Source: Burkholderiales bacterium
GTDB lineage: Bacteria; Pseudomonadota; Gammaproteobacteria; Burkholderiales; SG8-39
Length of the DNA: 64,000 bases
Assembly: GCA_035632415.1 (NCBI GenBank)
Contig: DASQGW010000203.1
Coordinates: 1,176 to 65,175, forward strand
Direction: 5' to 3'
The position numbers were made by a program, and so were the translations under genes. Positions 1 to 13,670 of the stretch are shown in pieces. Every line of letters starts with the position of its first letter. The first letter of the stretch is position 1. The notes below the pieces were generated by a model. It worked only from the letters and a program-made list of their open reading frames with translations. It did not search any database and had not been told where the DNA came from.

Positions 1-217
1 GCACCGCCGCCCCCGCAATGGCCAGCCCATGGTGCTCCGTGAGCGCTTGATCCGGCGGGCGATAGAGACCCCGAGCGATACGTTCGAGCTCCCCGCCGGC
101 AACCAGCCGGCTGAGCACCTGGCGGTGAATCCCCGCCTGCGCCAGCTCGCGCGCCGTCACGCCCTGGCGGCGGCGGGCGAGCTTCAGCGTACGGTCACGG
201 TCGGTGGCTGCAGGCAT
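1..217 (-). CDS. AbiEi-family (type IV TA / abortive infection) antitoxin, N-terminal fragment; the gene runs off the left edge
   Basis: A minus-strand ATG at 217..215 opens MPAATDRDRTLKLARRRQGVTARELAQAGIHRQVLSRLVAGGELERIARGLYRPPDQALTEHHG... This is the winged-helix pattern typical of AbiEi N-terminal domains. It is absent from the ORF track because the window truncates it. Confidence 0.45.
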   Translation of the reverse strand, partial: MPAATDRDRTLKLARRRQGVTARELAQAGIHRQVLSRLVAGGELERIARGLYRPPDQALTEHHGLAIAGAAV

Positions 218-297
218 GTGGCGAATAGTAGACTTTTCTGCATATCTGTCAACGTTTCGCCACAACGCCCCAATGACTGCTCGAACAGCCTTGGGAA

Positions 298-714
298 CTA
301 CTTTGGCTTCTTCTTGTACCCAGCGACGGCGCCTGCCACAGCACCGACCACGGCAGCGGCCACCCTGAACTGCGGTGGAACAAGAAACAGGGCGAGAGAA
401 CCGATGCCAGCGCCAATAGCCGCATTCCGCTTTTTCTTCCGAGCAGAATAGGGAGCGCATTGATAACCGTGCTGCCGGCGCGCCGTCCTCGAAGACCAGT
501 CACCTTTGCTGCGATTACACGAGATGTGAGCGGCGAAAAGATTGTTTCCGTGATCGGTTCCGCCACGAGCCTGCGCGACGGAATGCTCAATCTCCCAGCC
601 GCCTCTTTTTCCAAACAGGGCGTAGTTGCGGAAGCTTAAGCGCTTCCGGCAGATGTGGCACTGGCCTTCCGTCCGGTCATAGATCGTTCGCAGTTGCGCT
701 TCTTCTCGTTTCAT
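298..714 (-). CDS. HNH endonuclease with a C-terminal hydrophobic glycine-zipper/TM tail
   Basis: CHICRKRL ... EIEHSVAQARGGTDHGNNLFAAHISCN gives a CxxC plus H-N-H zinc-finger nuclease core. The C-terminus is NAAIGAGIGSLALFLVPPQFRVAAAVVGAVAGAVAGY. The gene lies 7 nt downstream of the ImmA gene on the same strand. Confidence 0.75.
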   Translation of the reverse strand: MKREEAQLRTIYDRTEGQCHICRKRLSFRNYALFGKRGGWEIEHSVAQARGGTDHGNNLFAAHISCNRSKGDWSSRTARRQHGYQCAPYSARKKKRNAAIGAGIGSLALFLVPPQFRVAAAVVGAVAGAVAGYKKKPK

Positions 715-721
715 CGAGCGC

Positions 722-1747
722 CTACCCTATCTCGGCCGCGATCAACGCCTGCACGCCGCCTTGCGTTCGCCGCGCGACGACCCGAACGGCCACAGCATCC
801 AAGCACTCGCCGTCCGAAGAGGCCCACCACGACAGGTCTTCCACGGCGTCCATCTCTGCGTCCTGATCCTCAAGGATTCGGGCAATTACCGAGCGTTTAG
901 GGACGCGCATGTTCTCCGGAATGAAAAAGTTCTGCGCGCGCGCGGCTTCATTTGCCGTTACGCGCACCGCACGCAGAGCCGCCTCGGGGGCGTCCTCGAT
1001 TGCCACGGTCCCACGAGCAATGCGCTCCGCATCGCGCTTCTTCCGCGCCAGCTTGGCGTCGACGAGCAAGCACGGCGCCGGCCACGCCTGGAAGAAACCG
1101 AAAAGCGACGCCTGGGCGCTTGCTTCGGGGCACAGCCGTGCTTTCAGATCAGCGAAGGCGTCGAATGAGATCGGCCCTTTGGTGTGCTTTCGAACGATCT
1201 CGTCCCAGAACCCGATATTGCCGGCGATGGCATCCATTACGGATTCCTCGGGATCCTTTTCATCCGCCGGCACATGCGTCCGATAGAACTTCAGTCGCTG
1301 CTGGGGCGTGAGGGTAAGCAAATGTGCGAGCTCGTGCCACTTGGTGAAGTAGCTACGAAACGCTTTTTCTCCTCTGCAGTCGATCACCGAAACGAAGCGG
1401 CGCTGCCCCGGCTTCGGCGCCTTCAGAGTGTAGGTGATTCCAAACGTATGCGGGTGCGCCAACTCCCTCTCAATCTCGGCGAAGATGAACTCGCGGTCCG
1501 CTACGTACTGTTCCCGGATTTTTCGCAGATCCGCGTCGTTGTGCACCTCAAGGAACAACGTATCGACTTTCGTGGCGACCACTCGGAGCAGGTCGCTCAG
1601 CCGTTCGCACGGCACTTCCTTTAGGAATGAGCGCACCTGCTTACGCGCATAACGCAGGATGTCCTGCAGCGGATTTTCGCTCGGCTTCAAGCCGAGATCC
1701 TGCGCCAAAGCCAATACCTCAGGCTTATCTACGAGTCTTGGAGGCAC
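722..1747 (-). CDS. ImmA/IrrE-family zinc metallopeptidase (CapP-like)
   Basis: HEXXH motif in FTKWHELAHLLTL. GTG start overlaps the 3' end of the upstream XRE gene by 23 nt. This is the typical repressor-protease gene pair. Confidence 0.8.
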   Translation of the reverse strand: MPPRLVDKPEVLALAQDLGLKPSENPLQDILRYARKQVRSFLKEVPCERLSDLLRVVATKVDTLFLEVHNDADLRKIREQYVADREFIFAEIERELAHPHTFGITYTLKAPKPGQRRFVSVIDCRGEKAFRSYFTKWHELAHLLTLTPQQRLKFYRTHVPADEKDPEESVMDAIAGNIGFWDEIVRKHTKGPISFDAFADLKARLCPEASAQASLFGFFQAWPAPCLLVDAKLARKKRDAERIARGTVAIEDAPEAALRAVRVTANEAARAQNFFIPENMRVPKRSVIARILEDQDAEMDAVEDLSWWASSDGECLDAVAVRVVARRTQGGVQALIAAEIG

Positions 1748-2156
1748 TTTCGTAAGCCCCTTTTATCGCCTTATGTAGATTCTTCCAGTCATCGACCGTT
1801 CGATGCTTGCGAACCTTCGTGCTCCGCCTCGCTACCACGGCCTCATGTGCATCGAGGAGGGTAAGCGTCTCGCTATAAGTTAGGCCAAGCTCCTCTGCGG
1901 CCTGTGAAAGCTCAGGTGGAATTGATACTGGCCCTCGCGCCGACTCCTGTTTGACCTGTTCACCTCGCATTAAATAGTCGAGGGAGAAACCTAAAGCGTC
2001 GGCAATCTTCAGTGCGTTGTCTGCACTCACGTTTCGCTTATTGTTCTCGACATCACTTAGAAAGCCCTTACTTATCTGAGCCTTATCTGCTAATTGTTCT
2101 TGAGTCCAGCCCATTTTTTCTCTCGCTTCCCTGATCCTGTCCCCAGGGGTTGGCAT
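1725..2156 (-). CDS. XRE-family helix-turn-helix transcriptional regulator (CapH-like)
   Basis: N-terminal Cro/C1 HTH: IREAREKMGWTQEQLADKAQISKGFLSDVENNKRNVSADNALKIADALGFSLDYLM. Transcribed divergently from the Ubl operon. Confidence 0.85.
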   Translation of the reverse strand: MPTPGDRIREAREKMGWTQEQLADKAQISKGFLSDVENNKRNVSADNALKIADALGFSLDYLMRGEQVKQESARGPVSIPPELSQAAEELGLTYSETLTLLDAHEAVVARRSTKVRKHRTVDDWKNLHKAIKGAYESASKTRR

Positions 2157-2195
2157 CGGTTCCTCCGGAAAAGCGTTCCAATAGTCTAACCCTAA

Positions 2196-2276
2196 ATAGC
2201 GAATTTGGCTCGCTTTCCTTGATGTCCGCTCGCAGTTCGCAATACAATATCTACACCGCTATACGAATCATAGCGG
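2196..2276. promoter_or_regulatory. Candidate operator(s) in the divergent promoter region
   Basis: Inverted repeat CCGCTAT-N7-ATAGCGG at 2256-2276, plus a third ATAGCG half-site at 2196-2201. All lie inside the 147-bp AT-richer intergenic region between the XRE gene and the Ubl operon. Confidence 0.3.
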
Positions 2277-2303
2277 CACACTTTGCGAAACAGGAGATCG
2301 AAG

Positions 2304-2471
2304 ATGCCTGCACCCATTGGAACCACAGCTAGAACCGGCGAAACCTGCCCCGAAAGTGGCGTCTGGGAAGTGACCAGCCGGCCGAGCACCACGGCGCCGA
2401 TCGCGAAGCGGAACCGCATGCCGCCCTATGGTGGCCAAGCGGTGACCTGGAAACTCATCAGACTCGCCTAA
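2304..2471 (+). CDS. Small (55 aa) leader protein of the Ubl operon, YjzC-like pattern
   Basis: ATG at 2304 is preceded by CAGGAGA (2291-2297). The sequence MPAPIGTTARTGETCPESGVWEV...IAKRNRMPPYGGQAVTWKLIRLA resembles small G-x-x-x-P-x-SG-x-W ... PP ... W-x-L proteins. The family assignment is tentative. Confidence 0.5.
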   Translation: MPAPIGTTARTGETCPESGVWEVTSRPSTTAPIAKRNRMPPYGGQAVTWKLIRLA

Positions 2472-2493
2472 CTCACGTAAGGAAGGAAAGCTC

Positions 2494-3150
2494 ATGACCG
2501 AAGCGCTAAAGGAAGCGTCCGCCGAACACGGCCAGAAATTCTTCATCGACATCGAGGGCACCATCCACGAGTGGTCCTCGCCGACGATCACCACCGAGCA
2601 GCTCGCGCAACTCGGTGGCTGGGACGTGTCCGCAGGGGTGATCGAGATCGACCCCGACAACAATGAGCGCACGCTCGCCCCCGGCGAGGTCATCGAGCTC
2701 AAGCCCGGGCACGGCTTCGCCAAGAAGGTCCGCTGGAAGCGAGGCGACAACGCCTTCGACGCGAGGCTGGACCTGGAGATGCAGCTCCTCCAGGGACATT
2801 TCGGAAAGGCCGTGACCCGCAACGGCGCGTGGTTCCAGGTAATTGACTATCCCGTTGCAGGCAAGGACTGGAACCGCGACAAGACGCCGGTTGCGTTCCG
2901 TGCACAGGTCGGCTATCCGGGCACGCCGCCTTACGGAATCTTCGTGCCCGCCGGCATCCGGTTTAATGGCGCTCCGCCGCAAAACTATCAGGAGCCAGCG
3001 GGTGACAAGCCGCCTTTCCCCGGCGACTGGGGGCTCTTTTCCTGGTCGCCTGAAGACGGGCAATGGCGCCCGGGCCCCACGCCGCGCGAGGGCTCCAACC
3101 TCCTCAACTTCACCCTGGGATTTGCGCACCGCTTCCGGCAGGGAGCCTGA
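2494..3150 (+). CDS. Ubiquitin-like (multiubiquitin-type beta-grasp) domain fused to an E2/UBC-like domain without cysteine
   Basis: The N-terminal part KFFIDIEGTIHEWSSPTITTEQLAQLGGWDVSAGVIEIDPDNNERTLAPGEVIELKPGHGF reads as Ubl-like. The C-terminal VGYPGTPPYGIFVPAGIRF... resembles the YPxxPPxxxF core of UBC/RWD folds. The 218-aa translation has no Cys. Operon partners are JAB and E1. Confidence 0.7.
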   Translation: MTEALKEASAEHGQKFFIDIEGTIHEWSSPTITTEQLAQLGGWDVSAGVIEIDPDNNERTLAPGEVIELKPGHGFAKKVRWKRGDNAFDARLDLEMQLLQGHFGKAVTRNGAWFQVIDYPVAGKDWNRDKTPVAFRAQVGYPGTPPYGIFVPAGIRFNGAPPQNYQEPAGDKPPFPGDWGLFSWSPEDGQWRPGPTPREGSNLLNFTLGFAHRFRQGA

Positions 3151-3152
3151 CT

Positions 3153-3683
3153 GTGGCGCTCATCAGCATCGGCGCGGCCGAGCTCGACCGGCTTCGCAGG
3201 CATCTGCTGAGCACGCCGCGTTGTGAGCAGGGCGCCTTTCTGTTCTGCCGGCACTCAGTCTCGGGCGGTGTCGACCACGTTTTCGCCTGTGAAGACTGGT
3301 CTCCCCTCAAGCGCTCCGACTTTGAAGTTCAGGCAGGCGACTACCTCGAGCTGACCGATGCCGCGCGCGCCCTGCTCATCAAGCAGGCGCATGACCGCGG
3401 CCTTTGCCTCGTGGAAAGCCATTCGCATCCCGGCCCGTATCCGGCGGCGTTTTCCTACTCCGACCTCACCGGCCTGGACGAATTCGTGCCGCACGTGCGC
3501 TGGCGGCTCCGCGGGCGACCCTATGCGGCGCTGGTGTTCGCGCCGAGCGGCTTTGACGGCCTTGCCTGGACCGATGGGCCGGGCACGCTGCCGCAGCAGC
3601 TCGTGGCTATCGAAACCGAGAAAGCGCGGCTTGCCGCGACCGGCTTGACCTTGGCTCGCACGGCAAGGGCAGCCCATGGATAG
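3153..3683 (+). CDS. JAMM/JAB-family metallo-isopeptidase (Prok-JAB type)
   Basis: GTG at 3153 lies 2 nt after the upstream stop, with GGCAGGGAG just upstream. Motifs are EQGAFLF (catalytic Glu) and ESHSHPGPYPAAFSYSD (HxH...S..D). Confidence 0.8.
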   Translation: MALISIGAAELDRLRRHLLSTPRCEQGAFLFCRHSVSGGVDHVFACEDWSPLKRSDFEVQAGDYLELTDAARALLIKQAHDRGLCLVESHSHPGPYPAAFSYSDLTGLDEFVPHVRWRLRGRPYAALVFAPSGFDGLAWTDGPGTLPQQLVAIETEKARLAATGLTLARTARAAHG

Positions 3684-4545
3684 GTTCGACCGCAACATCC
3701 GCTTCTTTGGCGCCGACGGCCAGGCGAAGCTGCGCAACGCGCATGTTGCGGTCGCGGGCTGCGGCGGCCTCGGTCAACACGTGATTCAGCAGCTCGCGTT
3801 CCTAGGCGTCAGCAAGCTCACGTTGATCGAGGACGAAGCGCTCAGCCGCAGCAACCTGAATCGATACATTCTGGCGCGGCACGACGACCCGATTCCCGGA
3901 ACCCACAAAATCGACAACGCGCTGCGCGCGATTTCGGCGATTGACCCGTCCATCGAGGTCACGCCCATCCGGAACTCGATCCGCTCGCGTGAGGCCTTCG
4001 AGGCGCTGCGCCCGGTACACAGCGTCTTCGGCTGCTTCGACAACGATGGAGCGCGGCTGATCCTGAATGAATACGCTAAAGCATATTCAAAGGAATACTA
4101 CGATCTTGCGAGCGACATCGAACAGGACGCCGGTCTGCGTTATGGAGGCCGCGTCGTGCGCGTCGACCACACTCCGGGTTGCCTAGTGTGCTTGGGGCAC
4201 ATCGATCTTGCCGCAGCCCGCGAGGACCTCGAGAGCGATGCCGCACGCCGGGACCGCGCCAAGATCTACGGCGTGGATGCCGACCTACTGGATGACGGCG
4301 GACCGTCCGTGGTATCCATCAACGGCGTCGTAGCGTCACTTGGCGCAACCGAGTACGTGCTCTCAGTGACGGGTATCCGATCGCCGAAACGGCTCCTGAC
4401 CTACCGCGGAGATCGCGGCATCGTAACTACCGGAAACGCGGACGCAACGCCAGGATGCTATTTCTGCGAAACCATCGCGGGTACCGGCGCTAGTGCTGCT
4501 GTCGAACGCTACATCATCACCGCGGCCGAGAGCGTCGCTGTCTAG
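3676..4545 (+). CDS. ThiF/MoeB-type E1-like adenylyltransferase
   Basis: VAVAGCGGLGQHV (nucleotide loop), EDEALSRSNLNRY, FDNDGARLILN, and two CxxC pairs (CLVC, CYFC). The start overlaps the JAB stop by 8 nt. Confidence 0.85.
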   Translation: MDRFDRNIRFFGADGQAKLRNAHVAVAGCGGLGQHVIQQLAFLGVSKLTLIEDEALSRSNLNRYILARHDDPIPGTHKIDNALRAISAIDPSIEVTPIRNSIRSREAFEALRPVHSVFGCFDNDGARLILNEYAKAYSKEYYDLASDIEQDAGLRYGGRVVRVDHTPGCLVCLGHIDLAAAREDLESDAARRDRAKIYGVDADLLDDGGPSVVSINGVVASLGATEYVLSVTGIRSPKRLLTYRGDRGIVTTGNADATPGCYFCETIAGTGASAAVERYIITAAESVAV

Positions 4546-5372
4546 GATTTTCTGTCGCCGCTCAAGCTGGCGATAGCCGCCTTCAGAACTTGAAGGCAGA
4601 TTTCGGCGGTGTGCTTGTCCGGTTTGAACCCGGAACTCATTTGCGCATAGGGATGAATGTAGTTTCTGAAGTCTCTAAGCGCGTGACTGAATTTCTTTAC
4701 GTCCAACTTCAGATAGCCGACCTCGCACGCGACATCGATCAAATTTGCAAGCGTCCACTCATGAAATTGCTTCGCGGCGCCAGCTTTGTCTTTTGGACAG
4801 TTCGGCGCCTGGTTGAACTCCTGTGGATTGGCGCTTGCCACACCGAGTAGCAATCCCTCCAGAATGCTTCCGCAATGAAACACCACCGCTAGCGGTGAAT
4901 CGGCCTTCAGGCAGCGGACCGCTTCGGAGAATCTCGACTCGAGAATTGGGGCCAAAGGGCCGGTAGTCGGGATTTTCTGTAGCGAGAGTGCCCCGTAGCT
5001 CTGCTTGAGGAACTCCTCGGCGGAATCCTTCTGCTGCACCGGTTTTCCGAGCAGCTTCTGAACAACATGATTTACGCGCTCGGCGAGCGCGGTTTCCTTG
5101 GCCGTGGGCTGCAGGGTCTTGTAGCGCCAGTACTCCAATAGGTCGGCGATCGTCTTGCCGACAACCGAGTCAGGTTCAAGTTCGACGAAGGCTCTGAGCC
5201 TTCTCGCCTTTGAATCTCCGTTCTTGGCGTACTTGTCTGCGTAAATGTCTATGCGAGCGCTCTCCCGAAAGAACTCGCTGAATGTCCTGTTCGAAAAATC
5301 CATGACATAGCCGCCGCCCATCGCAAAGAGTTCTTCAAGACACTCGCGCTCCAACATCTTCAGGCTACTCAT
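4542..5372 (-). CDS. HEPN-like / Abi-like protein encoded at the tail of the type I M-S operon
   Basis: The start overlaps the hsdS stop (ATGA-type, 5369-5372). The C-terminal helical region is WTLANLIDVACEVGYLKLDVKKFSHALRDFRNYIHP (R-x6-H, RN..H-like HEPN signature). The N-terminal GGYVMDFSNRTFSEFF...SKARRLRAF segment is common in genes embedded in R-M loci. Confidence 0.5.
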   Translation of the reverse strand: MSSLKMLERECLEELFAMGGGYVMDFSNRTFSEFFRESARIDIYADKYAKNGDSKARRLRAFVELEPDSVVGKTIADLLEYWRYKTLQPTAKETALAERVNHVVQKLLGKPVQQKDSAEEFLKQSYGALSLQKIPTTGPLAPILESRFSEAVRCLKADSPLAVVFHCGSILEGLLLGVASANPQEFNQAPNCPKDKAGAAKQFHEWTLANLIDVACEVGYLKLDVKKFSHALRDFRNYIHPYAQMSSGFKPDKHTAEICLQVLKAAIASLSGDRKS

Positions 5373-6721
5373 ACACGTTCGATGGCTTCCACAGCCTCTT
5401 CCACACTAAGCTCACCGGATATAAGTTTTGGCAGAAGGGTGTCGCGAAGTTCGGCGAGTGTTTCAGATTCCTGTTCTGTGGTTTGTATGCGATCAAGGAC
5501 CAGACCGGCCACCGAGTCGAACGCCCCAATGAGAAGCGATGGCGGGCAAGCAAACCGAAAGGACGGCACGGCATTCTTCGCAAGATGCAACACTGTCGTG
5601 CCTGTCGTATGCGCGTATGTGTGAGCCACAAATCTGTCACTGCAAGCCAAGAAATAAAGGAATGAGCGACGAATGTCGTCCCGGCTAGCTCGCACAATCA
5701 GTGTGTCGAGCGACGCCACTAACGTCCTAAACCTGCTCGTGGACCGCACAATTGCAGGACGACCGATCACCTCCGCGGCCTGTGTCACATCCGTACATGC
5801 GATGATGAGATCGCCGGAACCTACCACTTGTTCCGGTTTGTACCTCCCCACGAAGGGTTTCAGACCCTCAGAACGATAGCCGCCGCCACGCGCAAAGGAT
5901 TTGAGTGTAACTAGCGCGACACTCGATTCGACCAATTCTTCACTTGTGTAGGATCGCCCCTTGGTCGTTTCGATCAACCCTCCAAGCGCACATACTGTCC
6001 AGCCTTCCGGAATTTCGCCGATGTCCGACTCTATGAGGCGAGCCGGAAAAAGGTCCGCGAGAGTTTTGGCAAGCACAGGGACGCGGCCTTCTGATTTGGC
6101 GCGGACCGGGTCGAAGTCGACGAACCACGATTTGAAGAGCGCTCGTGCCGTCGCCTCCAAGGTTCCATCTATCCGACGGTTCAGCTCAATCTTGTCGTCA
6201 AGGGCTGCGAGGATGCTCGCGATGGTACGTTGAGTCTCGACATCAGGAAATCGAAAACGAAAATCATGTTGTTGCGAAATGCTGACGTAGTCAGCGGCCA
6301 TCGCGCCATGAGTCTTTACCCCGTCGAGAGCCGATTGAAACTCGTAACTGCGCATGAAGTAGAAAACAAAGCCTGGGTCGAGGACGTTGCGGTCGGTGAC
6401 ACGCCAATAAGCGACCTGCGGGGCAAACACGACGGGTGGCTGCTCCGGGCGCAGCCATCCTGCTCGGCCCACCGTCCCTTTCGTGATAAATGCAGCGTCT
6501 CCGGGTTGAGTAAGCTTCGCCGAGATGCGGCTAACGAACTCCGGCCTAATGTGGTCTACCGTGTTCGTATTAATCCAACCATCCCCTATGTCACCACCGC
6601 GGACAAAGGGCACTCCTTCCGAGCCTAGCTCCTCGTTGCGGACGCGATATCCATCAGAGATCCTAAGCGCCCCCTGATCCACAAGGTCACCGACGCGAAT
6701 CTCACACCAGTCAGCCGCCAT
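5369..6721 (-). CDS. hsdS: Type I restriction-modification specificity subunit
   Basis: Two target-recognition-domain halves are separated by conserved helices ([17 protein letters not shown] ... [17 protein letters not shown]). The gene overlaps hsdM by 11 nt. Confidence 0.85.
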
Positions 6722-8258
6722 ATCCTAGCCTCGCGAGTTTGGCTGCAATAGCGGCGTCGAGCTTCGCTGCATCGGCCTGCTGTTTGCGGAGTGTCGAGAT
6801 CAGCAGTTTGATTCTGCCCTCGAACGGTTCCCCGTTATCTTCCTGCGCTGCCGTGCCTACATAGCGGCCAGGCGTGAGAACATGGCCGTGCTCGCGGATC
6901 TCCTCTAGCGAGGTACTCTTGCAGAAGCCCGGGGTATCTTCGTATTTGCCGGCATCCTTCTCACCGCGCCAGGCGTGATAGGTCTTGGCGATTCGCGAGA
7001 GCTCGTCGTCGGTTAGCTCGCGATGGATGCGGTCCACCAGTTTTCCGAGCTTGCGAGCGTCGATGAAGAGGACATGGCCGCGGCGCTCGCGGAATTTGTG
7101 GTTTTTCTTGTCGCGCGCGAGGAACCAGAGGCAGGCGGGTATTTGTGTCGAATAGAAGAGCTGGCCGGGGAGCGCAACCATGCAGTCGACGAGGTCGGCT
7201 TCGACGAGGCTGCGTCGGATGTCGCCTTCGCCTGACTGATTGGATGACATCGAACCGTTCGCGAGCACGAAGCCTGCGAGCCCGGTAGGCGAGAGGTGGT
7301 GGACGATGTGCTGGACCCAGGCGAAGTTCGCATTGCTCGCGGGCGGGGCACCATATTTCCAGCGCTTGTCCTCGCGCAGGCGGTCGCCCCCCCAGTCGCT
7401 CACGTTGAAGGGCGGGTTGGCGAGGATGTAGTCGGCCTTGAGGTCGGGGTGGCGGTCGTTGTGGAAGGTGTCGCCGTGCTCGATCCTGCCCTCGATGCCG
7501 CGGATGGCGAGGTTCATCTTGGCGAGGCGCCACGTGGTGTAGTTGGATTCCTGGCCGTAGATGCTGATGTCGCCGAATTTGCCGCCGTGGGCGACGATGA
7601 ATTCCTCGGACTGGACGAACATTCCGGATGAGCCGCAGCAGGGGTCGTAGACACGGCCCTTGAAGGGCTCGAGCATTTCGACGAGGAGCTTGACCACGCA
7701 GCGCGGGGTGTAGAACTCGCCGCCCTTCTTGCCTTCGGCGCTCGCGAACTGCGAGAGGAAGTATTCGTAGACGCGGCCGAGCACGTCCTTGGACCGGCTC
7801 TCGGCGTCGCCGATGCGGATGTTGGAGACGAGGTCGATAAGCTGGCCGAGGCGCTGCTTGTCGAGCGCGGGGCGCGCGTACTCCTTCGGCAGTACGCCCT
7901 TAAGCGAGGGGTTGTCGCGCTCGATGCCCGCCATGGCTTCGTCCACGAGCTGGCCGATGGTCGGCTGTTTCGCCTGCGCCTTGAGCTTCGGCCAGCGAGC
8001 CTCGGGCGGCACCCAGAAGATGCCCTTCGCGCGGTATTCGTCCGGATCTTCGGGGTCGGCGCCTTGCTTCTTCTCGGCGTCGAGCTTGGCGTGCAGCTCT
8101 TCGAAGGCGTCGGAGATGTACTTGAGGAAGATCAGGCCGAGGACAACATGCTTGTACTCCGCGGCGTCCATGCTCCCGCGAAGCGCATCGGCCATGCGCC
8201 AGAGCTCGGCTTCGTAGCCGACGTTCGCGCCGTTGGAATTGCCTTTCTTCCCCGCCAC
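6711..8258 (-). CDS. hsdM: Type I restriction-modification N6-adenine DNA methyltransferase subunit
   Basis: [32 protein letters not shown] (HsdM N-terminus), GEFYTPR, DPCCGSGGMF-like motif I ([10 protein letters not shown]) and NPPF ([12 protein letters not shown]). The GTG at 8258 has an upstream GAGGGG; the longer ORF start at 8324 is an alternative. Confidence 0.9.
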
Positions 8259-8590
8259 AGCGTTCCCCTCGAATTCACGATAACACGGGCCCGCAACGCA
8301 CGCGCCAGTAGAAGCGACTGTCACGCGGTTGCAAATTCACGACGTGGGCCGCCACGTCGCAAGACCTGATTATCCCCAAGTCCTGAAACGCGCCGCCCAG
8401 GCGGCTTAGCTGCAATCCCCGCGCGCCCCTCAGCTCGAGGTGAAGGGGACGACAGCGGGAGCAGCTAGGCAAGCCGCCGAACGGGCGGCTTAAGCATTTC
8501 CATTCGTGTAGCTCCCCTCCCGTCCCCAGCGGGGAGGCGAAGAGAACTCCGCATGAGCAGCAGTTTTTTTTAACAGGCCAAGGAGGCCCA

Positions 8591-9220
8591 GTGCTCAGGC
8601 GCGAAGTCACCCATGCAACCGACCTCGATTTGCTGACCGTGCTTATCGGGGATCGCAAGAAGGCAGCGAAGCTATTCGCGAAGGCGAAGTTTTCGCTCTT
8701 TGCCCTGCTCCATTCCCAGCCCACCGAGAACGGGGACCTCTTCTGCGCCGAACGGGCGAGCGCCTACGGGGACGAGCCGATCATGAAGCTACAGGCGGCC
8801 GTGGAGCTTGCAGCCCGGACGCTCACCGAGCAGCTAACGAGCAAGACGAGCCTGACCAGCCCCGGAGCCGTGCGCGATCTGCTCAGGCTGAAACTCGCAG
8901 GCCTGCCGCACGAAGTCTTTATGTGCATCTACCTCGATGCTCAGCACCGGGTTATCGCCGTCGAGGAGCTTTTCCGGGGAACGCTGACACAGACAAGCGT
9001 TTATCCCCGCGAAGTAGTGAAGGCAGCGCTCCGAGCCAATGCCGCCGCAGTCATCTTCGCTCACAACCATCCCTCGGGCGTAGCGCAGCCCTCCCAAGCG
9101 GACGAGCTATTGACCCGCAACCTCCGGGAAGCGCTGTCCCTCGTCGAAATCAAGGTCCTCGATCACTTCATCGTCGCCGGCAATCAGGCGCTCAGCTTTG
9201 CCGAGCGAGGCCTTCTGTAA
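8591..9220 (+). CDS. radC: RadC-like JAB-domain protein
   Basis: C-terminal JAMM-like core [25 protein letters not shown] start preceded by AAGGAGG. Confidence 0.85.
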
Positions 9221-9264
9221 CCGTTTTTCCACGCAGTACAAACCAACCGAAAGGAGAAGTAAAG

Positions 9265-9603
9265 ATGGAATCAGCACAAGCACTCGCAGTCGTTCGCAGC
9301 CTTGCCAATGGGGTCGACCCGGAATCGGGAGAAGTCTTCCCGCCGGAGAGCACCTACCAGCGCCCGCTGGTGGTCCGAGCCCTCTACGAAGCCGCAAGCG
9401 CCTTGGAGCGCACCGAGCGCTTCGAGCGCCGCAAGTCTCAGATGCCCGCCAAGACGGGCGAGCCGTGGAGCGAGGACGAGGACCGTAAGCTCCTCGCCGC
9501 CTTCGACGCTGGCCGAGCGCTTCAAGAACTCGCCGCCGCGCATGAACGCACGATGGGCGCGGTACGGGCCCGCCTGCTCAAGTACGGGCGCATAAACGCT
9601 TAA
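9265..9603 (+). CDS. Small hypothetical protein with a Myb/SANT-like C-terminal helix bundle
   Basis: ATG preceded by AAGGAG (9251-9256). The C-terminus GEPWSEDEDRKLLAAFDAGRALQELAAAHERTMGAVRARLLKYG looks Myb-like. Followed by a terminator. Confidence 0.6.
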   Translation: MESAQALAVVRSLANGVDPESGEVFPPESTYQRPLVVRALYEAASALERTERFERRKSQMPAKTGEPWSEDEDRKLLAAFDAGRALQELAAAHERTMGAVRARLLKYGRINA

Positions 9604-9617
9604 GCGCCGTTCATTGA

Positions 9618-9644
9618 GGCCGGGATTAACAGTCCCGGCCTTTT
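9618..9644 (+). terminator. Rho-independent terminator after the 9265-9603 gene
   Basis: GGCCGGGA-ttaacag-TCCCGGCC followed by TTTT. Confidence 0.55.
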
Positions 9645-9653
9645 GTCGTCCAT

Positions 9654-9679
9654 AAAAAACGAGGTGCTGCGCCCCTCGT
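9654..9679 (-). terminator. Rho-independent terminator after the integrase gene
   Basis: On the minus strand: ACGAGG-ggcgcagca-CCTCGT followed by TTTTTT. Confidence 0.45.
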
Positions 9680-9689
9680 TGCTCCCGCC

Positions 9690-10970
9690 CTATGCCGCCT
9701 TGGCGGCCGAAATAGGGACGACGTTCCGCGATTTCAGTGCGTCCATGTGGTCAGCCCATTTTTGCAGCCAGCTTCGCGCCTCAGCGTCGTAGCTATGTCG
9801 GTCGTAAATGGCCGATACGGAATTGTCGACGTGATTCAGAATCCGATCCTGGACGACCCGCGGACAGCCGAGCCTCGCAAGTCCGGTTGCCACCGTCCGG
9901 CGCAGATCGTGAACTGTCCAGGGAACTTCGATGGGATCCTTGTTCCCGCTATTCGGTTCCATGTGGCGCGCAGTGTACTGGGCAAGCCCGAGCGCCTTTT
10001 GGGCGACGTGCTGACCCGCGATCCTGGACGGGAATACGAACGTCTTGTCGATTCCTTGCCGATACTTGAGAAGCTCGACGGCCTGCTCCGGAAGCATCGC
10101 GTCGTGCGGCTCACCGTTCTTCGTCTCGCGCATGGTCCAGACGCCCCGCTCGAGATCGATGTCCCGCCATCGCGCCGCGATCACTTCGCCGGACCGGCAG
10201 CCGGTCAACAGCACCAGCAGCAGCGATTCCCGAATGATCCGGCTATACGGACTGTGCGGCAGCCATCTCAGGAAGCTGGCGAGCTCGGCATCGGTCAAGG
10301 CGCGCTTCCTGCGCACCTGCGACGCCCCTTTGATCCCGAGCGTCGGCGAGTTGAAGGAATCCGGCAACCGCCCCTGCTCCACAGCGTGCACGTAGGCGCA
10401 GCGGATGCGGGATAGAAGCTGCGTGGCCTTGCGCGGATGCTTGAGTAGCGTCGGGCGGATTAGCTCGTCCTGGAGCTCGCGCCGCGTGAGCTCGCTTGCC
10501 GATTTGGTGCCGAACAACGGAACAAAGTCTCGCCGCAGCAGACGGGCGGATTCGGCGCCGCGCTTCTGCTTCGAGAGCGCTTCCTTGATGTATTCCTCTA
10601 CCAGGTCGCCGGCGGTGTACTCGCGCTCTCGCTCCGCCGCGCGCTTGCGCATTGCCTCCTCGCGCGCTTTTCGTTTCTCTAGTTGCGGGTCCTTGCCCTG
10701 CTGTCGCTCGAGGCGCTTTTTCAGTGCGGCATCGCGCGCCTTCGCGAGCGTCAATGGGCCGACGTCGCCCAGGATAATCTCGCGCAGAGCCCTGTCCCGC
10801 GAGCGGTAGCGATAGAAGAAGACCTTTTTGCCCGTGGCCGAGGAACGCACGCGCAGTCCAGCCACTTGCGTGTCGCCGCGGTCCTCTCCGGGCGCCATGT
10901 CGGCGATAATCGCCGCGGTCAGGGGCCCTGGTTTTTTCAGTGTAGGTTTTAGTGTAGGTAGCTTCGACAT
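9690..10970 (-). CDS. Tyrosine recombinase / phage-type integrase
   Basis: Catalytic residues in LLTGCRSGEV (R), HDLRRT (H-x-x-R) and SAIYDRHSY (Y). The ATG at 10970 is preceded by GGGAGG; the ORF-track start at 10982 is an alternative. Confidence 0.9.
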   Translation of the reverse strand: MSKLPTLKPTLKKPGPLTAAIIADMAPGEDRGDTQVAGLRVRSSATGKKVFFYRYRSRDRALREIILGDVGPLTLAKARDAALKKRLERQQGKDPQLEKRKAREEAMRKRAAEREREYTAGDLVEEYIKEALSKQKRGAESARLLRRDFVPLFGTKSASELTRRELQDELIRPTLLKHPRKATQLLSRIRCAYVHAVEQGRLPDSFNSPTLGIKGASQVRRKRALTDAELASFLRWLPHSPYSRIIRESLLLVLLTGCRSGEVIAARWRDIDLERGVWTMRETKNGEPHDAMLPEQAVELLKYRQGIDKTFVFPSRIAGQHVAQKALGLAQYTARHMEPNSGNKDPIEVPWTVHDLRRTVATGLARLGCPRVVQDRILNHVDNSVSAIYDRHSYDAEARSWLQKWADHMDALKSRNVVPISAAKAA

Positions 10971-11015
10971 CGTGCCTCCCATTGGTTCGACCTACACCGC
11001 CACCTACACTGAAAA
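10934..11015. repeat. 26-bp imperfect inverted repeat bracketing the integrase RBS and start codon
   Basis: TTTTCAGTGTAGGTtttaGTGTAGGT (10934-10959) pairs with ACCTACACcgccACCTACACTGAAAA (10990-11015). 22 of 26 positions are complementary. Each arm contains a tandem GTGTAGGT unit. Confidence 0.6.
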
Positions 11016-11165
11016 GACCGGCAAGGACTTGCAAGAACTTGCCTGGACTTGTACAGAAAAGCTGTCGGTGAAGGTCACTTTTCCTTGGAACGACAAGACC
11101 TTATAACGCAAAAGGCGAGCGCCGACAAGGGCCCCGGTGAAATCGGGAATTCAGGTCACACGCCC

Positions 11166-13670
11166 ATGATGCAGCAATACCTGCGCATCAAGGGCGAGCA
11201 TCCGAACGTCCTCGTGTTCTACCGGATGGGCGACTTCTACGAGCTCTTCTACGACGACGCCGAGAAGGGCGCGCGGCTGCTCGACATCACCCTCACCTCG
11301 CGCGGCCAGTCGGCGGGCGCGCCGGTGAAGATGGCAGGCGTCCCGGTGCATTCCGTCGAGCAATACCTCGCAAGACTGGTGAAGCTCGGCGAATCGGTGG
11401 CGATTTGCGAGCAGGTGGGCGATGTGGCGAGCGCCAAGGGCCCGGTGGATCGGCAAGTGACGCGCATCGTCACCCCGGGAACGCTCACCGACTCGTCGCT
11501 CCTCGAAGACAAGGCCGACAACATCCTGCTTTCCATCTCCAGGGATAAGAGCACGGTGGGCCTCGCATGGCTCTCGCTCGCCAGCGGCACGCTGCGCGTC
11601 GCCGAAGTGGCGCCGCAAGCATTGCAGAACGAGCTGCGCCGCATCGCTCCAGCGGAGGTCCTGGTCGCCGAAGGCGTCGTGCTCGACGGCTATTTCACGA
11701 CACGGCTGCCGCCCTGGCACTTCGACATCGAGGCCGGCAAGCGCAAGCTCTTGAAGCAGCTCGGCGCGGGCACTCTCGCCGGCTTCGGGGTGGAGGACAT
11801 GACGCTCGCGGTCGGCGCCTGCGGCGCGCTCCTCGAGTACGCCGGCAAGACCCAGGGCCAGGCACTCGCGCATGTCACCGCAGTCACCGCCGAGCGGGCA
11901 GGCGAGTACGTGCGCCTCGACGCGGCGACGCGACGCAATCTCGAGCTCACGGAAACGCTGCGCGGCGAGCCTGCGCCCACGCTCTTTTCACTGTTGGACG
12001 AATGCGCCACCGGCATGGGCAGCCGCCTGCTGCGTCACTGGCTGCACCACCCGTTGCGCGACCGCGAAGCGCTGAAGCACCGTCATGAGGCCGTGGCGTG
12101 CCTTGTTGACTCGTTCAATGAGATTCACCGCGTGCTGCGCGGCTTCTCGGACGTAGAGCGCATCACGGCCCGCGTTGCGCTGAAAAGCGCTCGCCCGCGC
12201 GAGCTTGCCGGCCTGCGCGAGACTCTCCAGCAGCTTGGCGCGCTTCGCGACGCCACGAATCGAGGTGAGACCCCTCCTCTTCTTCGGCAATTGGTCTCGG
12301 ATCTCGCGACCCCCGACGAGTGCATCGCCCTTCTGCAGAAGTCGCTGAAGGAGGAGCCGGCGGCGCGCGTCGTCGACGGCGGCGTGATCGCCGACGGCCA
12401 TAGCGCGGAGCTCGATGAGCTGCGCGGATTGCAGACCAACGCCGGCGCCTTCCTCGCGGAGCTCGAGGCGCGCGAGCGCGCGCGCACGGGCATCCCGAAC
12501 CTGAAGGTCGCCTACAACTCGGTGCATGGGTACTACATCGAGGTGAGCAACGCGCAAGCGGAGAAAGTGCCCGTCGACTACCGCCGGCGGCAGACGCTGA
12601 AAAATGCCGAGCGCTATATCACGCCGGAGCTGAAGACTTTCGAGGACAAGGCGCTCTCCGCTCGCGACCGAGCGCTCGCGCTGGAGAAATCGCTCTACGA
12701 CGCCCTGCTCGACTCTCTGAACGCGCACGTCCCTCAGTTGCAGCGCATTGCGCGGGCGCTGTCGCAGCTCGACGTGCTGGCGGGCTTCGGCGCGGCCGCG
12801 GCGAGACGCAGCTATGTCCGGCCGCAGTTCGTGGACGAACGGCAGATCGAGATCGACGCCGGGCGACACCCGGTGGTGGAAGCACAGATCGACAATTTCA
12901 TTGCCAATGATTGCCGCCTCTCGGCCACGCGCGCGCTGCTGCTCATTACCGGCCCCAACATGGGCGGCAAGTCCACCTACATGCGCCAGGTCGCGCTCAT
13001 CGTGCTCATGTCGCACATCGGGTCCTTCGTGCCGGCCAAGGGCGCCCGCATCGGGCCGATCGACCAGATCTTCACGCGCATCGGCGCTGCCGATGACCTC
13101 GCCGGCGGTCGCTCGACCTTCATGGTCGAGATGACCGAGAGCGCATCGATACTGCACAACGCCACGGCGCAAAGCCTCGTGCTGATGGATGAGGTCGGGC
13201 GCGGCACGTCGACCTTCGATGGCCTCGCGCTCGCCTGGGCGATCGCGCGGCACTTGGTCGAGCGCAACCGCTCCCTCAGCCTCTTCGCCACGCACTACTT
13301 CGAGATGACGCGCCTCGCGCTCGAGTACAAGGAGGTTAAGAACGTGCACCTGGATGCGGTCGAGCACAAGGACACGGTCGTCTTCCTCCATGCGGTGGAG
13401 GAAGGCCCGGCGAGCCAGAGCTACGGCCTGCAGGTCGCCGCGCTCGCCGGCGTGCCGAAGGACGTGATCCGCCGGGCGCGCAAGTATCTCGAGCTTCTCG
13501 AGGAATCGGCCGTCGGCCGCGGCGGCCAGGACGATTTGTTCGCCAGGACGCGCGCCGCCGAACCGGAACCGCCAGCCGACGCGCTGCGCGACGAGCTTGC
13601 GAAGATCAATCCCGACGAGCTCTCGCCGCGCGAGGCGCTCGAGCTCCTTTACCGCCTCAAGAAGCTCTAG
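11166..13670 (+). CDS. mutS: DNA mismatch repair protein MutS
   Basis: [33 protein letters not shown]-terminus, Walker [14 protein letters not shown], and STFMVEM. The internal ATG at 11166 is chosen over the ORF-track start at 11049. Confidence 0.95.

What the first reader, a model, noticed from the sequence alone, without database searches (positions are those of the whole stretch)
2494..3150. The E2-like protein has no cysteine and carries its own N-terminal Ubl, so a canonical E1-to-E2 thioester relay is impossible
The 218-aa translation contains no Cys, and the HPN motif of UBC enzymes is absent. The domain therefore behaves like a UEV/RWD-type pseudo-E2. The Ubl is N-terminal, so its C-terminus is buried in a linker (KPGHGFAKKVRWKRGDNAF). 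The whole protein ends ...FRQGA, with a penultimate Gly. Two mechanisms are possible. The JAB peptidase could cut the linker to release a Ubl ending in Gly. Alternatively it could trim the terminal Ala so that the entire Ubl-E2-like protein is adenylated by the E1 and conjugated directly. Either route differs from the described Bil/CBASS-Cap2 chemistry.
Basis: partly seen in the sequence, partly recalled or inferred. Interest (0 to 1): 0.7.

Follow-up and report, generated by a model that had tools for sequence, protein, structure and literature searches.

The report
Cysteine-free bacterial ubiquitin-like conjugation operon
The cysteine-less "E2 with its own ubiquitin-like domain" is real, but it is a relative of the already described bacterial Bub (6E) pathway, in which a peptidase cuts the fusion protein and serine and tyrosine replace the usual cysteines; this copy is a stripped-down three-gene variant with a different E2 active-site make-up.

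Summary
ORF 2494..3150 encodes a 218-aa protein with no Cys and no HPN motif, an N-terminal Multi_ubiq beta-grasp and a C-terminal UBC-like domain, ending ...FRQGA.

It is not a decayed allele: across 226 relatives no column holds Cys in more than 22. It is probably not a pseudo-E2 either. Ser183 is kept in 223/226 and aligns with the catalytic Ser333 of Citrobacter BubB, the Bub/"6E" pathway of Ye et al. 2024.

The E1 (3676..4545) has no crossover-loop Cys but an invariant Tyr198, like BubCD Tyr370. The JAB (3153..3683) has an intact JAMM motif.

The Ubl end is Gly84 (WKRG|DNAF), not "GHG". In 25 related genomic loci Ubl and E2 are separate genes, and in 23 the Ubl gene stops right after this Gly.

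The second mechanism (trimming Ala218) is not supported, although the penultimate Gly is truly conserved and remains unexplained.

Differences from described Type I Bub:
- JAB and E1 are separate genes.
- No BubE/DUF6527 gene is present.
- The Asp/His partners of the catalytic Ser are replaced (Tyr147, Ser185).

Verdict: a known kind of system, and a probably uncatalogued variant of it.

The parts
722..1747 (-). 341-aa protein with an HExxH motif (WHELAHLL), overlapping the HTH gene by 23 nt. Candidate CapP/ImmA-like metallopeptidase partner of the repressor.
   Evidence: ORF. No library hit. The assignment rests on the motif read in the sequence, on synteny with the HTH gene, and on a 33%-identical homologue next to a capH-like gene in L031. 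Inferred, not shown.
1725..2156 (-). CapH/ImmR/DdrO-like XRE-family HTH repressor, transcribed divergently from the operon.
   Evidence: Pfam HTH_3 3e-19. PADLOC capH 1.6e-14. PDB ImmR 7t8i, 7t5u and DdrO. An upstream HTH gene is the only neighbour conserved across related loci, in 28 loci.
2219..2280 (+). Promoter-like site (TTGATG-18-TACAAT, 2219-2248) followed by the inverted repeat CCGCTAT-N7-ATAGCGG (within 2252-2280). Candidate operator of the repressor.
   Evidence: (consensus scan; 1 promoter-like site against 0.4 expected) and the sequence. Function inferred only.
2483..4573 (+). Extent of the three-gene cassette as a transferable unit.
   Evidence: blastn shows 85.6% identity to a Nitrospira MAG contig (L006) over exactly 2483..4573. 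The flanks are unrelated.
2494..2745 (+). Ubl (BubA-like) part of the pre-protein, residues 1-84. Residues 1-15 are disordered, then a single beta-grasp, then a basic flexible tail K-K-V-R-W-K-R-G84. The predicted JAB cleavage and adenylation site is after Gly84 (codon 2743-2745).
2746..3150 (+). E2 (BubB-like, Prok-E2_E) part, residues 85-218, plus the stop codon. Candidate catalytic Ser183 (codon 3040-3042); Tyr147 (2932-2934) sits where Type I Bub has Asp; Ser185 sits where Type I Bub has His. The conserved C-terminal E/Q-Gly217-x tail is at 3139-3147.
3153..3683 (+). Stand-alone JAB/JAMM metallopeptidase (176 aa). GTG start 3 nt after the E2 stop, with GGGAG 7 nt upstream. E25, H90, H92, S101 and D104 are invariant.
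   Evidence: Pfam Prok-JAB 6e-05. 41-sequence alignment. The homologous genes are 171-184 aa and start right after the E2 stop.
3676..4545 (+). Stand-alone single-domain ThiF/MoeB-type E1 (289 aa), overlapping the JAB gene by 8 nt. It has a GxGxxG loop, N62-R63 and D122, a Zn site (C169, C172, C261, C264), and an invariant Tyr198-Gly199 in the crossover loop (codon 4267-4269).
   Evidence: Pfam ThiF 9.9e-36. PDB BubCD 9e-12; a profile of the crossover region gives BubCD as best hit, 2.6e-6. 37-sequence alignment.

Best explanation
This is a compact, three-gene relative of the Type I Bub (6E) bacterial ubiquitination-like pathway. It sits in a defence island and probably under a CapH/CapP-type, damage-responsive repressor.

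Proposed mechanism:
1. The 218-aa product is a pre-protein.
2. The JAB peptidase cuts it after Gly84 (…VRWKRG|DNAF…). This yields an 84-aa Ubl with a free Arg-Gly end and a 134-aa E2.
3. The ThiF-type E1 adenylates Gly84. Its invariant crossover-loop Tyr198 takes the Ubl as an oxyester.
4. The Ubl passes to Ser183 of the E2 as an oxyester, and from there to target amino groups.
5. There is no BubE, and the JAB is kept even where the Ubl gene already ends in Gly. The JAB therefore probably also removes the Ubl from targets.

Basis of each step:
- Shown by the sequence here: gene order, intact motifs, and the conservation pattern.
- Shown only for the Citrobacter and E. coli homologues in the literature: cleavage after the junction Gly, and dependence on Tyr and Ser.
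- Inferred: that this clade, which has Tyr147 and Ser185 in place of Asp and His beside the Ser, uses the same chemistry; the deconjugating role of the JAB; the regulation; and the biological role.
For: Family and fold:
- 48/53 relatives hit Multi_ubiq and 29/53 hit Prok-E2_E.
- A profile of the family hits Citrobacter BubB at 3.9e-5 and the Citrobacter multi-ubiquitin protein at 6.5e-3.
- Foldseek's top hits are BubA-type Ubls and BubB.

Cleavage site:
- R83 and G84 are invariant in 140/140 fused proteins.
- 25 of 41 non-redundant genomic loci encode Ubl and E2 separately, and in 23 of these the Ubl ORF ends …[KR]RG-stop.
- 17 of 28 stand-alone Ubl cluster representatives end exactly there; most of the others end 1-6 residues after an RG.
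- In the model, residues 81-83 have pLDDT below 50, like a Ubl tail.

E2:
- Ser183 is kept in 223/226, and no column has Cys in more than 22/226.
- In an alignment with the Asp/His clade and the Citrobacter BubB fragment, S183 aligns with S333, Y147 with D299 and S185 with H335.

E1:
- Y198-G199 is invariant in 37/37, and no Cys lies between the Zn-site CxxC and GPSV.
- BubCD is the best PDB hit for the crossover region. Y198 lies within 2 residues of the Tyr called Y370 in the paper.

JAB:
- The JAMM residues are invariant in 41/41.
- A JAB is present in every split locus.

Literature (PMC11601596):
- BubCD cleaves BubAB after the conserved Gly.
- Y370F and S333A/H335A abolish conjugation.
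- 31% of Bub operons carry CapH+CapP.
Against: - The window protein itself does not reach any Pfam E2 model, and it finds BubB only through a profile.
- The helper residues said to activate the Ser in both described Bub types (His+Asp, or Lys+His) are absent: 0 of 207 members of this clade have His185. Ser183 chemistry here is therefore an extrapolation, and the nucleophile could be Tyr147.
- BubE, said to be present in all Bub operons, is missing.
- No Bub operon has yet been shown to protect against phage (PMC11601596; PMC13373217).
- The conserved E/Q-Gly-x end of the E2 is not explained by this model.
Confidence: 0.7

Rival explanations
1. Pseudo-E2. The UBC-like domain is a non-catalytic UEV/RWD-like adaptor that only binds the Ubl or the E1. 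After JAB cleavage the E1 transfers the Ubl directly from the adenylate or from a Tyr ester to targets.
For: No Cys and no HPN. The His/Asp or Lys/His partners of the described Bub catalytic Ser are missing. The 2006 comparative analysis reached this reading.
Against: Ser183 is kept in 223/226 proteins from many phyla and aligns with the experimentally required Ser333 of BubB. Tyr147, Trp184, Trp179 and Arg213 around it are also invariant or nearly so, which is the pattern of an active site. In Citrobacter the equivalent domain is required for conjugation.
Confidence: 0.13
2. Same pathway, but in this clade the E2 nucleophile is Tyr147 (or a Tyr147/Ser183 pair with Tyr as the acyl carrier). 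The relay would then be Tyr to Tyr rather than Tyr to Ser.
For: Tyr147 is fixed in 207/226 and replaces the Asp of the other clade in strict covariation with loss of His185 (14/14 against 0/207). The E1 of the family already uses a Tyr.
Against: Ser183 stays invariant in both clades, and position 147 aligns with a helper residue in BubB, not the nucleophile. No coordinates were available to measure distances.
Confidence: 0.1
3. The JAB trims Ala218, and the E1 adenylates Gly217, so that the E2 domain (or the whole Ubl-E2) is itself conjugated.
For: The penultimate Gly is conserved in 180/207 of this clade, with exactly one variable residue after it in 184/226. BilA is a precedent: a Ubl ending Gly-Ala that must be trimmed. 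Cap2 adenylates a non-Ubl C-terminus (own knowledge of CBASS type II).
Against: Stand-alone Ubl genes end at the Gly aligned to G84, so that is the reactive end. Gly217 follows a helix (210-215) by two residues, too short a tail to reach an E1 active site without unwinding (inference). The fixed one-residue length looks like a structural constraint, whereas Ubl pro-extensions in this family vary from 0 to 6 residues. The Asp/His clade mostly lacks this Gly (3/14).
Confidence: 0.04
4. Decayed allele of a Cys-dependent E2.
For: None found.
Against: The most frequent Cys column in the E2 domain has 22/226, and 139/226 have no Cys in the domain at all. All three genes are intact, with invariant motifs.
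Confidence: 0.01

Closest known systems
Type I Bub operon (formerly 6E.1/DUF6527): BubAB, BubCD, BubE of Citrobacter sp. RHBSTW-00271 (Ye, Gong, Chambers, Corbett; PMC11601596; PDB 9ea4, 9ea8, 9eae, 9eav)
   Same: Ubl-E2 fusion pre-protein with an invariant junction Gly. Multi_ubiq-type Ubl. Cys-less UBC-like E2 with an invariant Ser at the catalytic position. JAMM peptidase. ThiF-like E1 without a crossover-loop Cys and with an invariant Tyr. CapH/CapP-type regulators, and a location in a mobile or defence island.
   Different: JAB and E1 are separate, overlapping genes rather than one BubCD protein. No BubE/DUF6527 gene. Tyr147 and Ser185 stand where BubB has Asp299 and His335. One beta-grasp rather than three. 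The E1 keeps a CxxC…CxxC Zn site, and BubCD shows no Cys at the first CxxC in the alignment. The E2 ends in a conserved E/Q-Gly-x.
Type II Bub operon (6E.2): BubA, BubBD (E2-E1 fusion), BubE, E. coli ZDHYS365
   Same: Cys-free Tyr/Ser relay and a Multi_ubiq Ubl. A separate Ubl gene, as in the split relatives found here.
   Different: Type II has an E2-E1 fusion, usually no JAB, BubE present, and Ser accompanied by Lys+His.
Operon type 6e of Iyer, Burroughs and Aravind 2006 (PMC1779556); Pfam Prok-E2_E (PF14462) and Multi_ubiq (PF14452)
   Same: The same protein families. The Cys-less E2-like domain, sometimes fused to the (poly)Ubl or standing alone between the Ubl and JAB-E1 genes, was described there.
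   Different: It was read there as an inactive RWD-like domain, in an operon with a JAB-E1 fusion and a metal-binding protein 'Y'. Neither the fusion nor 'Y' is present here.
Bil (BilABCD) and CBASS type II Cap2/Cap3
   Same: Bacterial E1/E2/JAB conjugation modules in defence islands. The JAB exposes or removes a C-terminal Gly.
   Different: Both use Cys thioesters. The Bil E1 has IAD-AAD-CYS domains and a CEHH E2. Cap2 is an E2-E1 fusion that conjugates the CD-NTase rather than a Ubl.
MoeB/ThiF/UBA5-type minimal E1s
   Same: Single adenylation domain of about 290 aa with a Zn site. MoeB is the best plain-sequence PDB hit of the E1 (2.5e-16).
   Different: They act on MoaD/ThiS/UFM1 and use Cys or persulfide chemistry. 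No E2 or JAB partner sits in an operon with them.

Membership tests
Bub (6E) pathway, Type I, as defined in PMC11601596 | Ubl-E2 fusion (BubAB) with a conserved Gly at the Ubl/E2 junction | tested here: met
   R83 and G84 are invariant in 140/140 fused relatives. The junction equals the stop of stand-alone Ubl genes.
Bub (6E) pathway, Type I, as defined in PMC11601596 | BubA-type (Multi_ubiq) beta-grasp Ubl | tested here: met
   Pfam PF14452 at 24.8 bits against a 24.5 cut-off. 48/53 relatives hit it. Foldseek to 9d5a/9d59/9ea8_B with probability 1.00.
Bub (6E) pathway, Type I, as defined in PMC11601596 | Cys-less UBC-like E2 (BubB) with an invariant Ser at the catalytic position | tested here: met
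   Profile hit to 9eae_C at 3.9e-5. Foldseek TM 0.67 on the target. Ser183 in 223/226, aligned with S333.
Bub (6E) pathway, Type I, as defined in PMC11601596 | Catalytic Ser accompanied by an invariant His (Ser+2) and Asp | tested here: not met
   The window has Ser185 and Tyr147. In this clade 0/207 have His185. The Asp147/His185 pair occurs in a separate clade, 14/14.
Bub (6E) pathway, Type I, as defined in PMC11601596 | JAB/JAMM peptidase fused to the E1 (BubCD) | tested here: not met
   Separate ORFs 3153..3683 and 3676..4545 in different frames. They are separate in nearly all related loci. Asp/His-clade locus L049 has the 459-aa fusion.
Bub (6E) pathway, Type I, as defined in PMC11601596 | E1 lacking a crossover-loop Cys, with an invariant crossover-loop Tyr | tested here: met
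   Y198-G199 in 37/37. Only Zn-site Cys are present. BubCD is the best PDB match of this region.
Bub (6E) pathway, Type I, as defined in PMC11601596 | BubE (DUF6527 Ser-His protease with a C4 zinc site) encoded in the operon | tested here: not met
   No + strand gene follows the E1 in the window. No conserved neighbour other than an HTH gene within 3.5 kb in about 40 loci. No DUF6527 hit in candidate small neighbours. No plausible CxCxC ORF in the window. Caveat: absence was judged by clustering and motif, because no known BubE sequence was at hand.
Bub (6E) pathway, Type I, as defined in PMC11601596 | Ubl~Tyr and Ubl~Ser oxyester intermediates; JAB cleavage of the pre-protein | not testable with these tools
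   Biochemistry exists only for the Citrobacter and E. coli proteins.
Pfam Prok-E2_E (PF14462) | Score above the gathering threshold of the model | tested here: inconclusive
   The window protein gives no hit even at E<=10. However, 29 of 53 aligned relatives at 47-88% identity do (precomputed hits).
UEV/RWD-type pseudo-E2 | UBC fold with no catalytic nucleophile at the active-site position; acts by binding only | tested here: not met
   The fold and the lack of Cys are met. The active-site position, however, carries a near-invariant Ser homologous to a proven catalytic Ser. Non-catalytic behaviour itself was not testable.
Bil (BilABCD) | E2 with a catalytic Cys (CEHH motif) and an E1 with IAD-AAD plus a mobile CYS domain | tested here: not met
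   No Cys in the E2. The E1 is a single 289-aa adenylation domain without an inserted Cys domain. Definition.
CBASS type II Cap2/Cap3 | E2-E1 fusion with catalytic Cys residues, conjugating a CD-NTase | tested here: not met
   Only the ThiF part of the E1 resembles the PADLOC E1-E2 models. There is no E2-E1 fusion. No CD-NTase was seen among the ORFs examined at 1..9000.

The most novel reading that the evidence does not exclude
The window carries a member of an uncatalogued third type of Bub pathway. This type is a self-contained Ubl(-)E2 / JAB / E1 cassette without BubE, found in at least ten phyla. Its features would be:
- The E2 catalytic Ser works with a Tyr rather than with His+Asp or Lys+His.
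- The stand-alone JAB is both the maturase and the only deconjugase.
- The conserved E/Q-Gly-x carboxy-terminus of the E2 has a function of its own, for example docking the basic KRWKRG tail of the Ubl at the active site, acting as a pseudo-substrate, or taking part in catalysis.
Probability: 0.4. Interest if true: 0.55.

Novelty: new variant of a known kind. Interest (0 to 1): 0.4.

Why it matters
The headline of the finding, ubiquitin-like conjugation with no cysteine at all, is a real and remarkable piece of biochemistry. It was, however, published as the Bub pathway in 2024, and the Cys-less Ubl-E2 fusion has been in the literature since 2006.

What this window adds is narrower:
- A widespread minimal three-gene form lacks the supposedly universal BubE protease and carries a third active-site make-up around the catalytic Ser. 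That make-up would test which residues really activate a serine oxyester in an E2 fold.
- Natural split and fused gene pairs mark the maturation site to the residue, without an experiment.
- A JAB is retained where no maturation is needed, which points to a deconjugating role.
- A conserved E2 carboxy-terminal Gly-x has no explanation.

The biological role of any Bub pathway is still open.

Tried and rejected
- Single-sequence searches of the 218-aa protein against the PDB gave only chance hits. The C-terminal domain alone hit no Pfam family even at E<=10, and NCBIfam and PADLOC gave nothing. Only profiles of homologues linked it to BubB and Prok-E2_E.
- HMMER's local alignment to BubB put the catalytic S333 opposite Gly180, and S337/W338 opposite S183/W184. 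I rejected that register after finding the Asp147/His185 clade. A joint MAFFT alignment then gave S183=S333, H185=H335 and Y147=D299 without conflict.
- The C-terminal half of the E1 alone found nothing in the PDB. A 15-sequence profile of that region was needed.
- The search for BubE/DUF6527 covered neighbour clustering, Pfam on small downstream ORFs of L001, L003, L048 and L049, and a CxCxC scan of the window. Nothing was found. The 117-aa ORF after the E1 in L048 is the frameshifted tail of the E1 itself.
- The small ORF 2283/2304..2471 upstream of the operon has a good Shine-Dalgarno sequence, which suggested a fourth gene. It has no family hit, no counterpart in any related locus, and lies outside the cassette shared with L006. 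I did not count it as part of the system.
- The CapP assignment of ORF 722..1747 could not be confirmed by any library or by the PDB.
- Phage records hold no relative, and plasmid records hold one.
- Supplementary Table S1 of the Bub paper is not held, and the published 2026 version was not found. I could not check whether this clade is among the 107 catalogued BubAB proteins.
Full report
**Observation**

ORF 2494..3150 on the + strand encodes 218 residues behind a good ribosome-binding site. The translation has no Cys and no HPN, and it ends FRQGA.

Residues 18-73 match Pfam Multi_ubiq just above threshold. The C-terminal 135 residues match nothing on their own.

The gene is real and widespread. 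There are 187 homologues with E<=1e-3, the best at 88% identity. A full HMMER scan of 1.84 billion representatives finds 713 clusters at 50% identity.

An AlphaFold2 model built on 53 homologues is confident (pLDDT 88.6). It shows a beta-grasp, a low-confidence linker at residues 81-83, and an alpha/beta domain that begins with a long helix at 87-106. Its best matches among solved structures are the Citrobacter, E. coli and Methylobacterium multi-ubiquitin proteins and Citrobacter BubB (9eae_C, 128 columns, TM 0.67 on the target). Eukaryotic E2s follow at lower probability.

**Surroundings**

The gene is the first of three tightly packed + strand genes:
- A JAB/JAMM peptidase with a GTG start at 3153, three bases after the E2 stop, ending at 3683.
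- A 289-aa ThiF-type E1 at 3676..4545, overlapping the JAB gene by 8 nt.

Upstream and divergent lie an XRE-type HTH gene and an overlapping 341-aa gene. The HTH gene matches the PADLOC capH model and the PDB entries ImmR, 7t5u and DdrO. The 341-aa gene has an HExxH motif but no family hit.

Downstream on the other strand are a DUF4145-like gene and the type I restriction-modification S and M subunits. Then come RadC and a tyrosine integrase that abuts mutS. The operon therefore sits in a defence island at the edge of an integrated element.

Nucleotide similarity to the closest relative, a Nitrospira MAG contig, covers exactly 2483..4573 at 85.6% and stops at both ends. The three genes thus move as one cassette and exchange regulators.

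**Related loci**

In 42 genomic loci and several metagenomic ones, the order Ubl(-)E2, JAB (about 176 aa), E1 (about 290 aa) is constant. The genomes include Nitrospira, Beta-, Alpha- and Deltaproteobacteria, Acidobacteriota, Planctomycetota, Dehalococcoidia, Gemmatimonadales, Verrucomicrobiota and Saccharibacteria.

The only other gene conserved within 3.5 kb is an upstream HTH regulator, present in 28 loci.

**Where the Ubl ends**

R83 and G84 are invariant in all 140 fused relatives.

In 25 of the 41 non-redundant loci the Ubl and the E2 are separate genes. In 23 of those the Ubl ORF ends …[KR]-R-G followed directly by the stop codon, and the other two end KRGAR.

Among stand-alone Ubl cluster representatives, 17 of 28 end exactly at that Gly. 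Most of the others end 1-6 residues after an RG.

Evolution has therefore marked the mature end: Gly84, in VRWKRG|DNAF.

**The E2 domain**

Across 226 fused or stand-alone E2 domains, 139 have no Cys at all, and the commonest Cys column holds 22. The Cys-less state is the family's normal state, not decay.

Ser183 is present in 223 of 226. Trp179, Trp184, Trp191, Arg213, Pro146 and Glu95 are also nearly fixed.

Position 147 is Tyr in 207 proteins and Asp in 14. All 14 with Asp have His at 185, and none of the 207 with Tyr do.

A joint alignment with the Citrobacter BubB segment recovered shows that the Asp/Ser/His clade carries the D299/S333/H335 constellation of BubB. The window's Tyr147, Ser183 and Ser185 occupy the same three columns. 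HMMER's first local alignment had put S333 opposite Gly180. I reject that register for this reason.

**E1 and JAB**

In 37 E1 sequences the nucleotide-binding glycines, N62-R63, D122 and four Zn-site Cys (169, 172, 261, 264) are invariant. No Cys lies in the crossover loop, and Tyr198-Gly199 within it is invariant.

A profile of this region has Citrobacter BubCD as its best PDB hit (2.6e-6). It places Tyr198 two residues from the loop Tyr of BubCD. That Tyr is chain residue 372, which is Y370 in the paper's numbering if the chain carries two extra N-terminal residues (the offset is my inference from the chain length of 458 against 456).

In 41 JAB sequences E25, H90, H92, S101 and D104 are invariant.

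**What is known**

Iyer, Burroughs and Aravind described this operon type (row 6e) in 2006. Their description includes a Cys-less E2/RWD-like domain that is sometimes fused to the (poly)Ubl, which they read as inactive.

Ye, Gong, Chambers and Corbett (bioRxiv 2024, PMC11601596; cited as Ye et al. 2026) renamed it Bub and reported the following:
- The JAB domain of BubCD cleaves BubAB after the conserved Gly229.
- The E1 has no catalytic Cys but an invariant Tyr370.
- BubB has an invariant Ser333, with His335 and Asp299 in Type I and with Lys+His in Type II.
- Y370F and S333A/H335A abolish conjugation.
- All 544 catalogued operons carry BubE (DUF6527), a Ser-His protease.
- 31% have CapH+CapP.
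- No phage protection has been found yet.

**How this copy differs**

- JAB and E1 are separate genes here and in nearly all relatives. An Asp/His-clade locus has the 459-aa fusion.
- No BubE could be found in the window or near about 40 relatives.
- The Ser's partners are Tyr147 and a small or polar residue at 185.
- There is one beta-grasp, not three.
- The E1 keeps a Zn site.
- PADLOC 2.0 has no model that recognises the Ubl-E2 or the JAB.
- The JAB is retained in all 23 loci where the Ubl is already born with a free Gly. It must therefore do something besides maturation. With BubE absent, deconjugation is the obvious candidate (inference).

**The second mechanism and the C-terminal Gly**

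The penultimate Gly is real. It is found in 180/207 of the Tyr clade, with exactly one variable residue after it in 184/226 overall, and it is also kept in stand-alone E2s. In the Asp/His clade it occurs in only 3/14, while the preceding Glu is kept.

I do not think it is a second conjugatable end, for three reasons:
- The Ubl end is independently defined.
- The Gly sits two residues after helix 210-215, whereas the Ubl tail is seven flexible residues.
- Its extension has a fixed length, unlike the 0-6-residue Ubl pro-extensions.

BilA (Gly-Ala, trimmed by its DUB) shows that the idea is not absurd, and I cannot exclude it. In Citrobacter, BubA was attached to Lys358 of BubB, four residues from its end, so this tail is likely to lie near the active site. 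A role of the acidic Glu-Gly-x-COO- tail in holding the basic KRWKRG tail of the Ubl, or in catalysis, is speculation.

**Verdict**

The system is a member of the Bub/6E kind, but of a form that fails three of the features used to define Type I: the JAB-E1 fusion, BubE, and the Ser-His-Asp constellation. I file it as a new variant of a known kind.

One caveat applies. The catalogue table of the Bub paper and its published version were not available.

Noticed in passing
window 2252-2280, just after the promoter-like site at 2219-2248: Inverted repeat CCGCTAT-N7-ATAGCGG immediately downstream of a -10-like TACAAT, between the divergent HTH gene and the operon. It looks like an operator for the CapH-like repressor.
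   Followed up: partly
window 2304-2471 (+) (or from TTG 2283): A 55-62-aa ORF with a strong AGGAG Shine-Dalgarno sequence in the 5' leader of the operon. It has no family hit, no counterpart in any related locus, and lies outside the cassette shared with L006. It may be a leader peptide, an orphan small gene, or nothing.
   Followed up: partly
window 2483-4573 against L006 3187-5283: The three-gene cassette is 85.6% identical in DNA to a Nitrospira MAG contig with sharp ends. The flanks, including the regulator genes, are unrelated. The cassette appears to be exchanged as a unit between different regulatory contexts.
   Followed up: partly
loci L012, L018, L020, L023-L025, L027-L031, L033-L044: The JAB gene is retained in every locus where the Ubl gene already ends in Arg-Gly-stop and needs no maturation.
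   Followed up: partly
window 3139-3147 (E2 residues 216-218) and homologues: The E2 domain almost always ends E/Q-Gly-x, with exactly one variable last residue. This also holds in stand-alone E2 genes. It is much less so in the Asp/His (Citrobacter-like) clade. Unexplained.
   Followed up: partly
proteins P0124, P0129, P0130, P0132, P0136: Some members of the same family are 340-367 aa, with the match starting near residue 140-157. P0129 and two others have 2-3 matched stretches. They presumably carry extra N-terminal beta-grasp or other domains, as reported for BubA.
   Followed up: no
locus L025 6517-8055: In one Dehalococcoidia genome the JAB and E1 matches fall in a single 512-aa ORF, whereas its close relatives L023 and L024 have two genes. 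This is either a true JAB-E1 fusion within the Tyr clade or an assembly artefact.
   Followed up: no
window 298-714 (-): A 138-aa HNH endonuclease with a C-terminal glycine-zipper (membrane-like) tail, next to the HExxH gene.
   Followed up: no
window 4542-8324 (-): A minus-strand gene row: type I R-M HsdM (6711..8324), HsdS (5369..6721) and a 276-aa weakly DUF4145-like protein (4542..5372) that ends 4 nt inside the E1 stop region. I did not look for an HsdR.
   Followed up: no
window 8591-10982 and 11049-13670: RadC-like JAB protein (8591..9220), then a tyrosine integrase with an Arm-binding domain (9690..10982, -), directly beside mutS (11049..13670). This is probably the border of the integrated island that carries the operon. 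No tRNA gene occurs anywhere in the window.
   Followed up: partly
locus L048 6631-8071: In this Asp/His-clade locus the JAB-E1 gene is broken by a frameshift. The 117-aa 'next gene' is the E1 C-terminal part, and a DDE transposase follows.
   Followed up: partly
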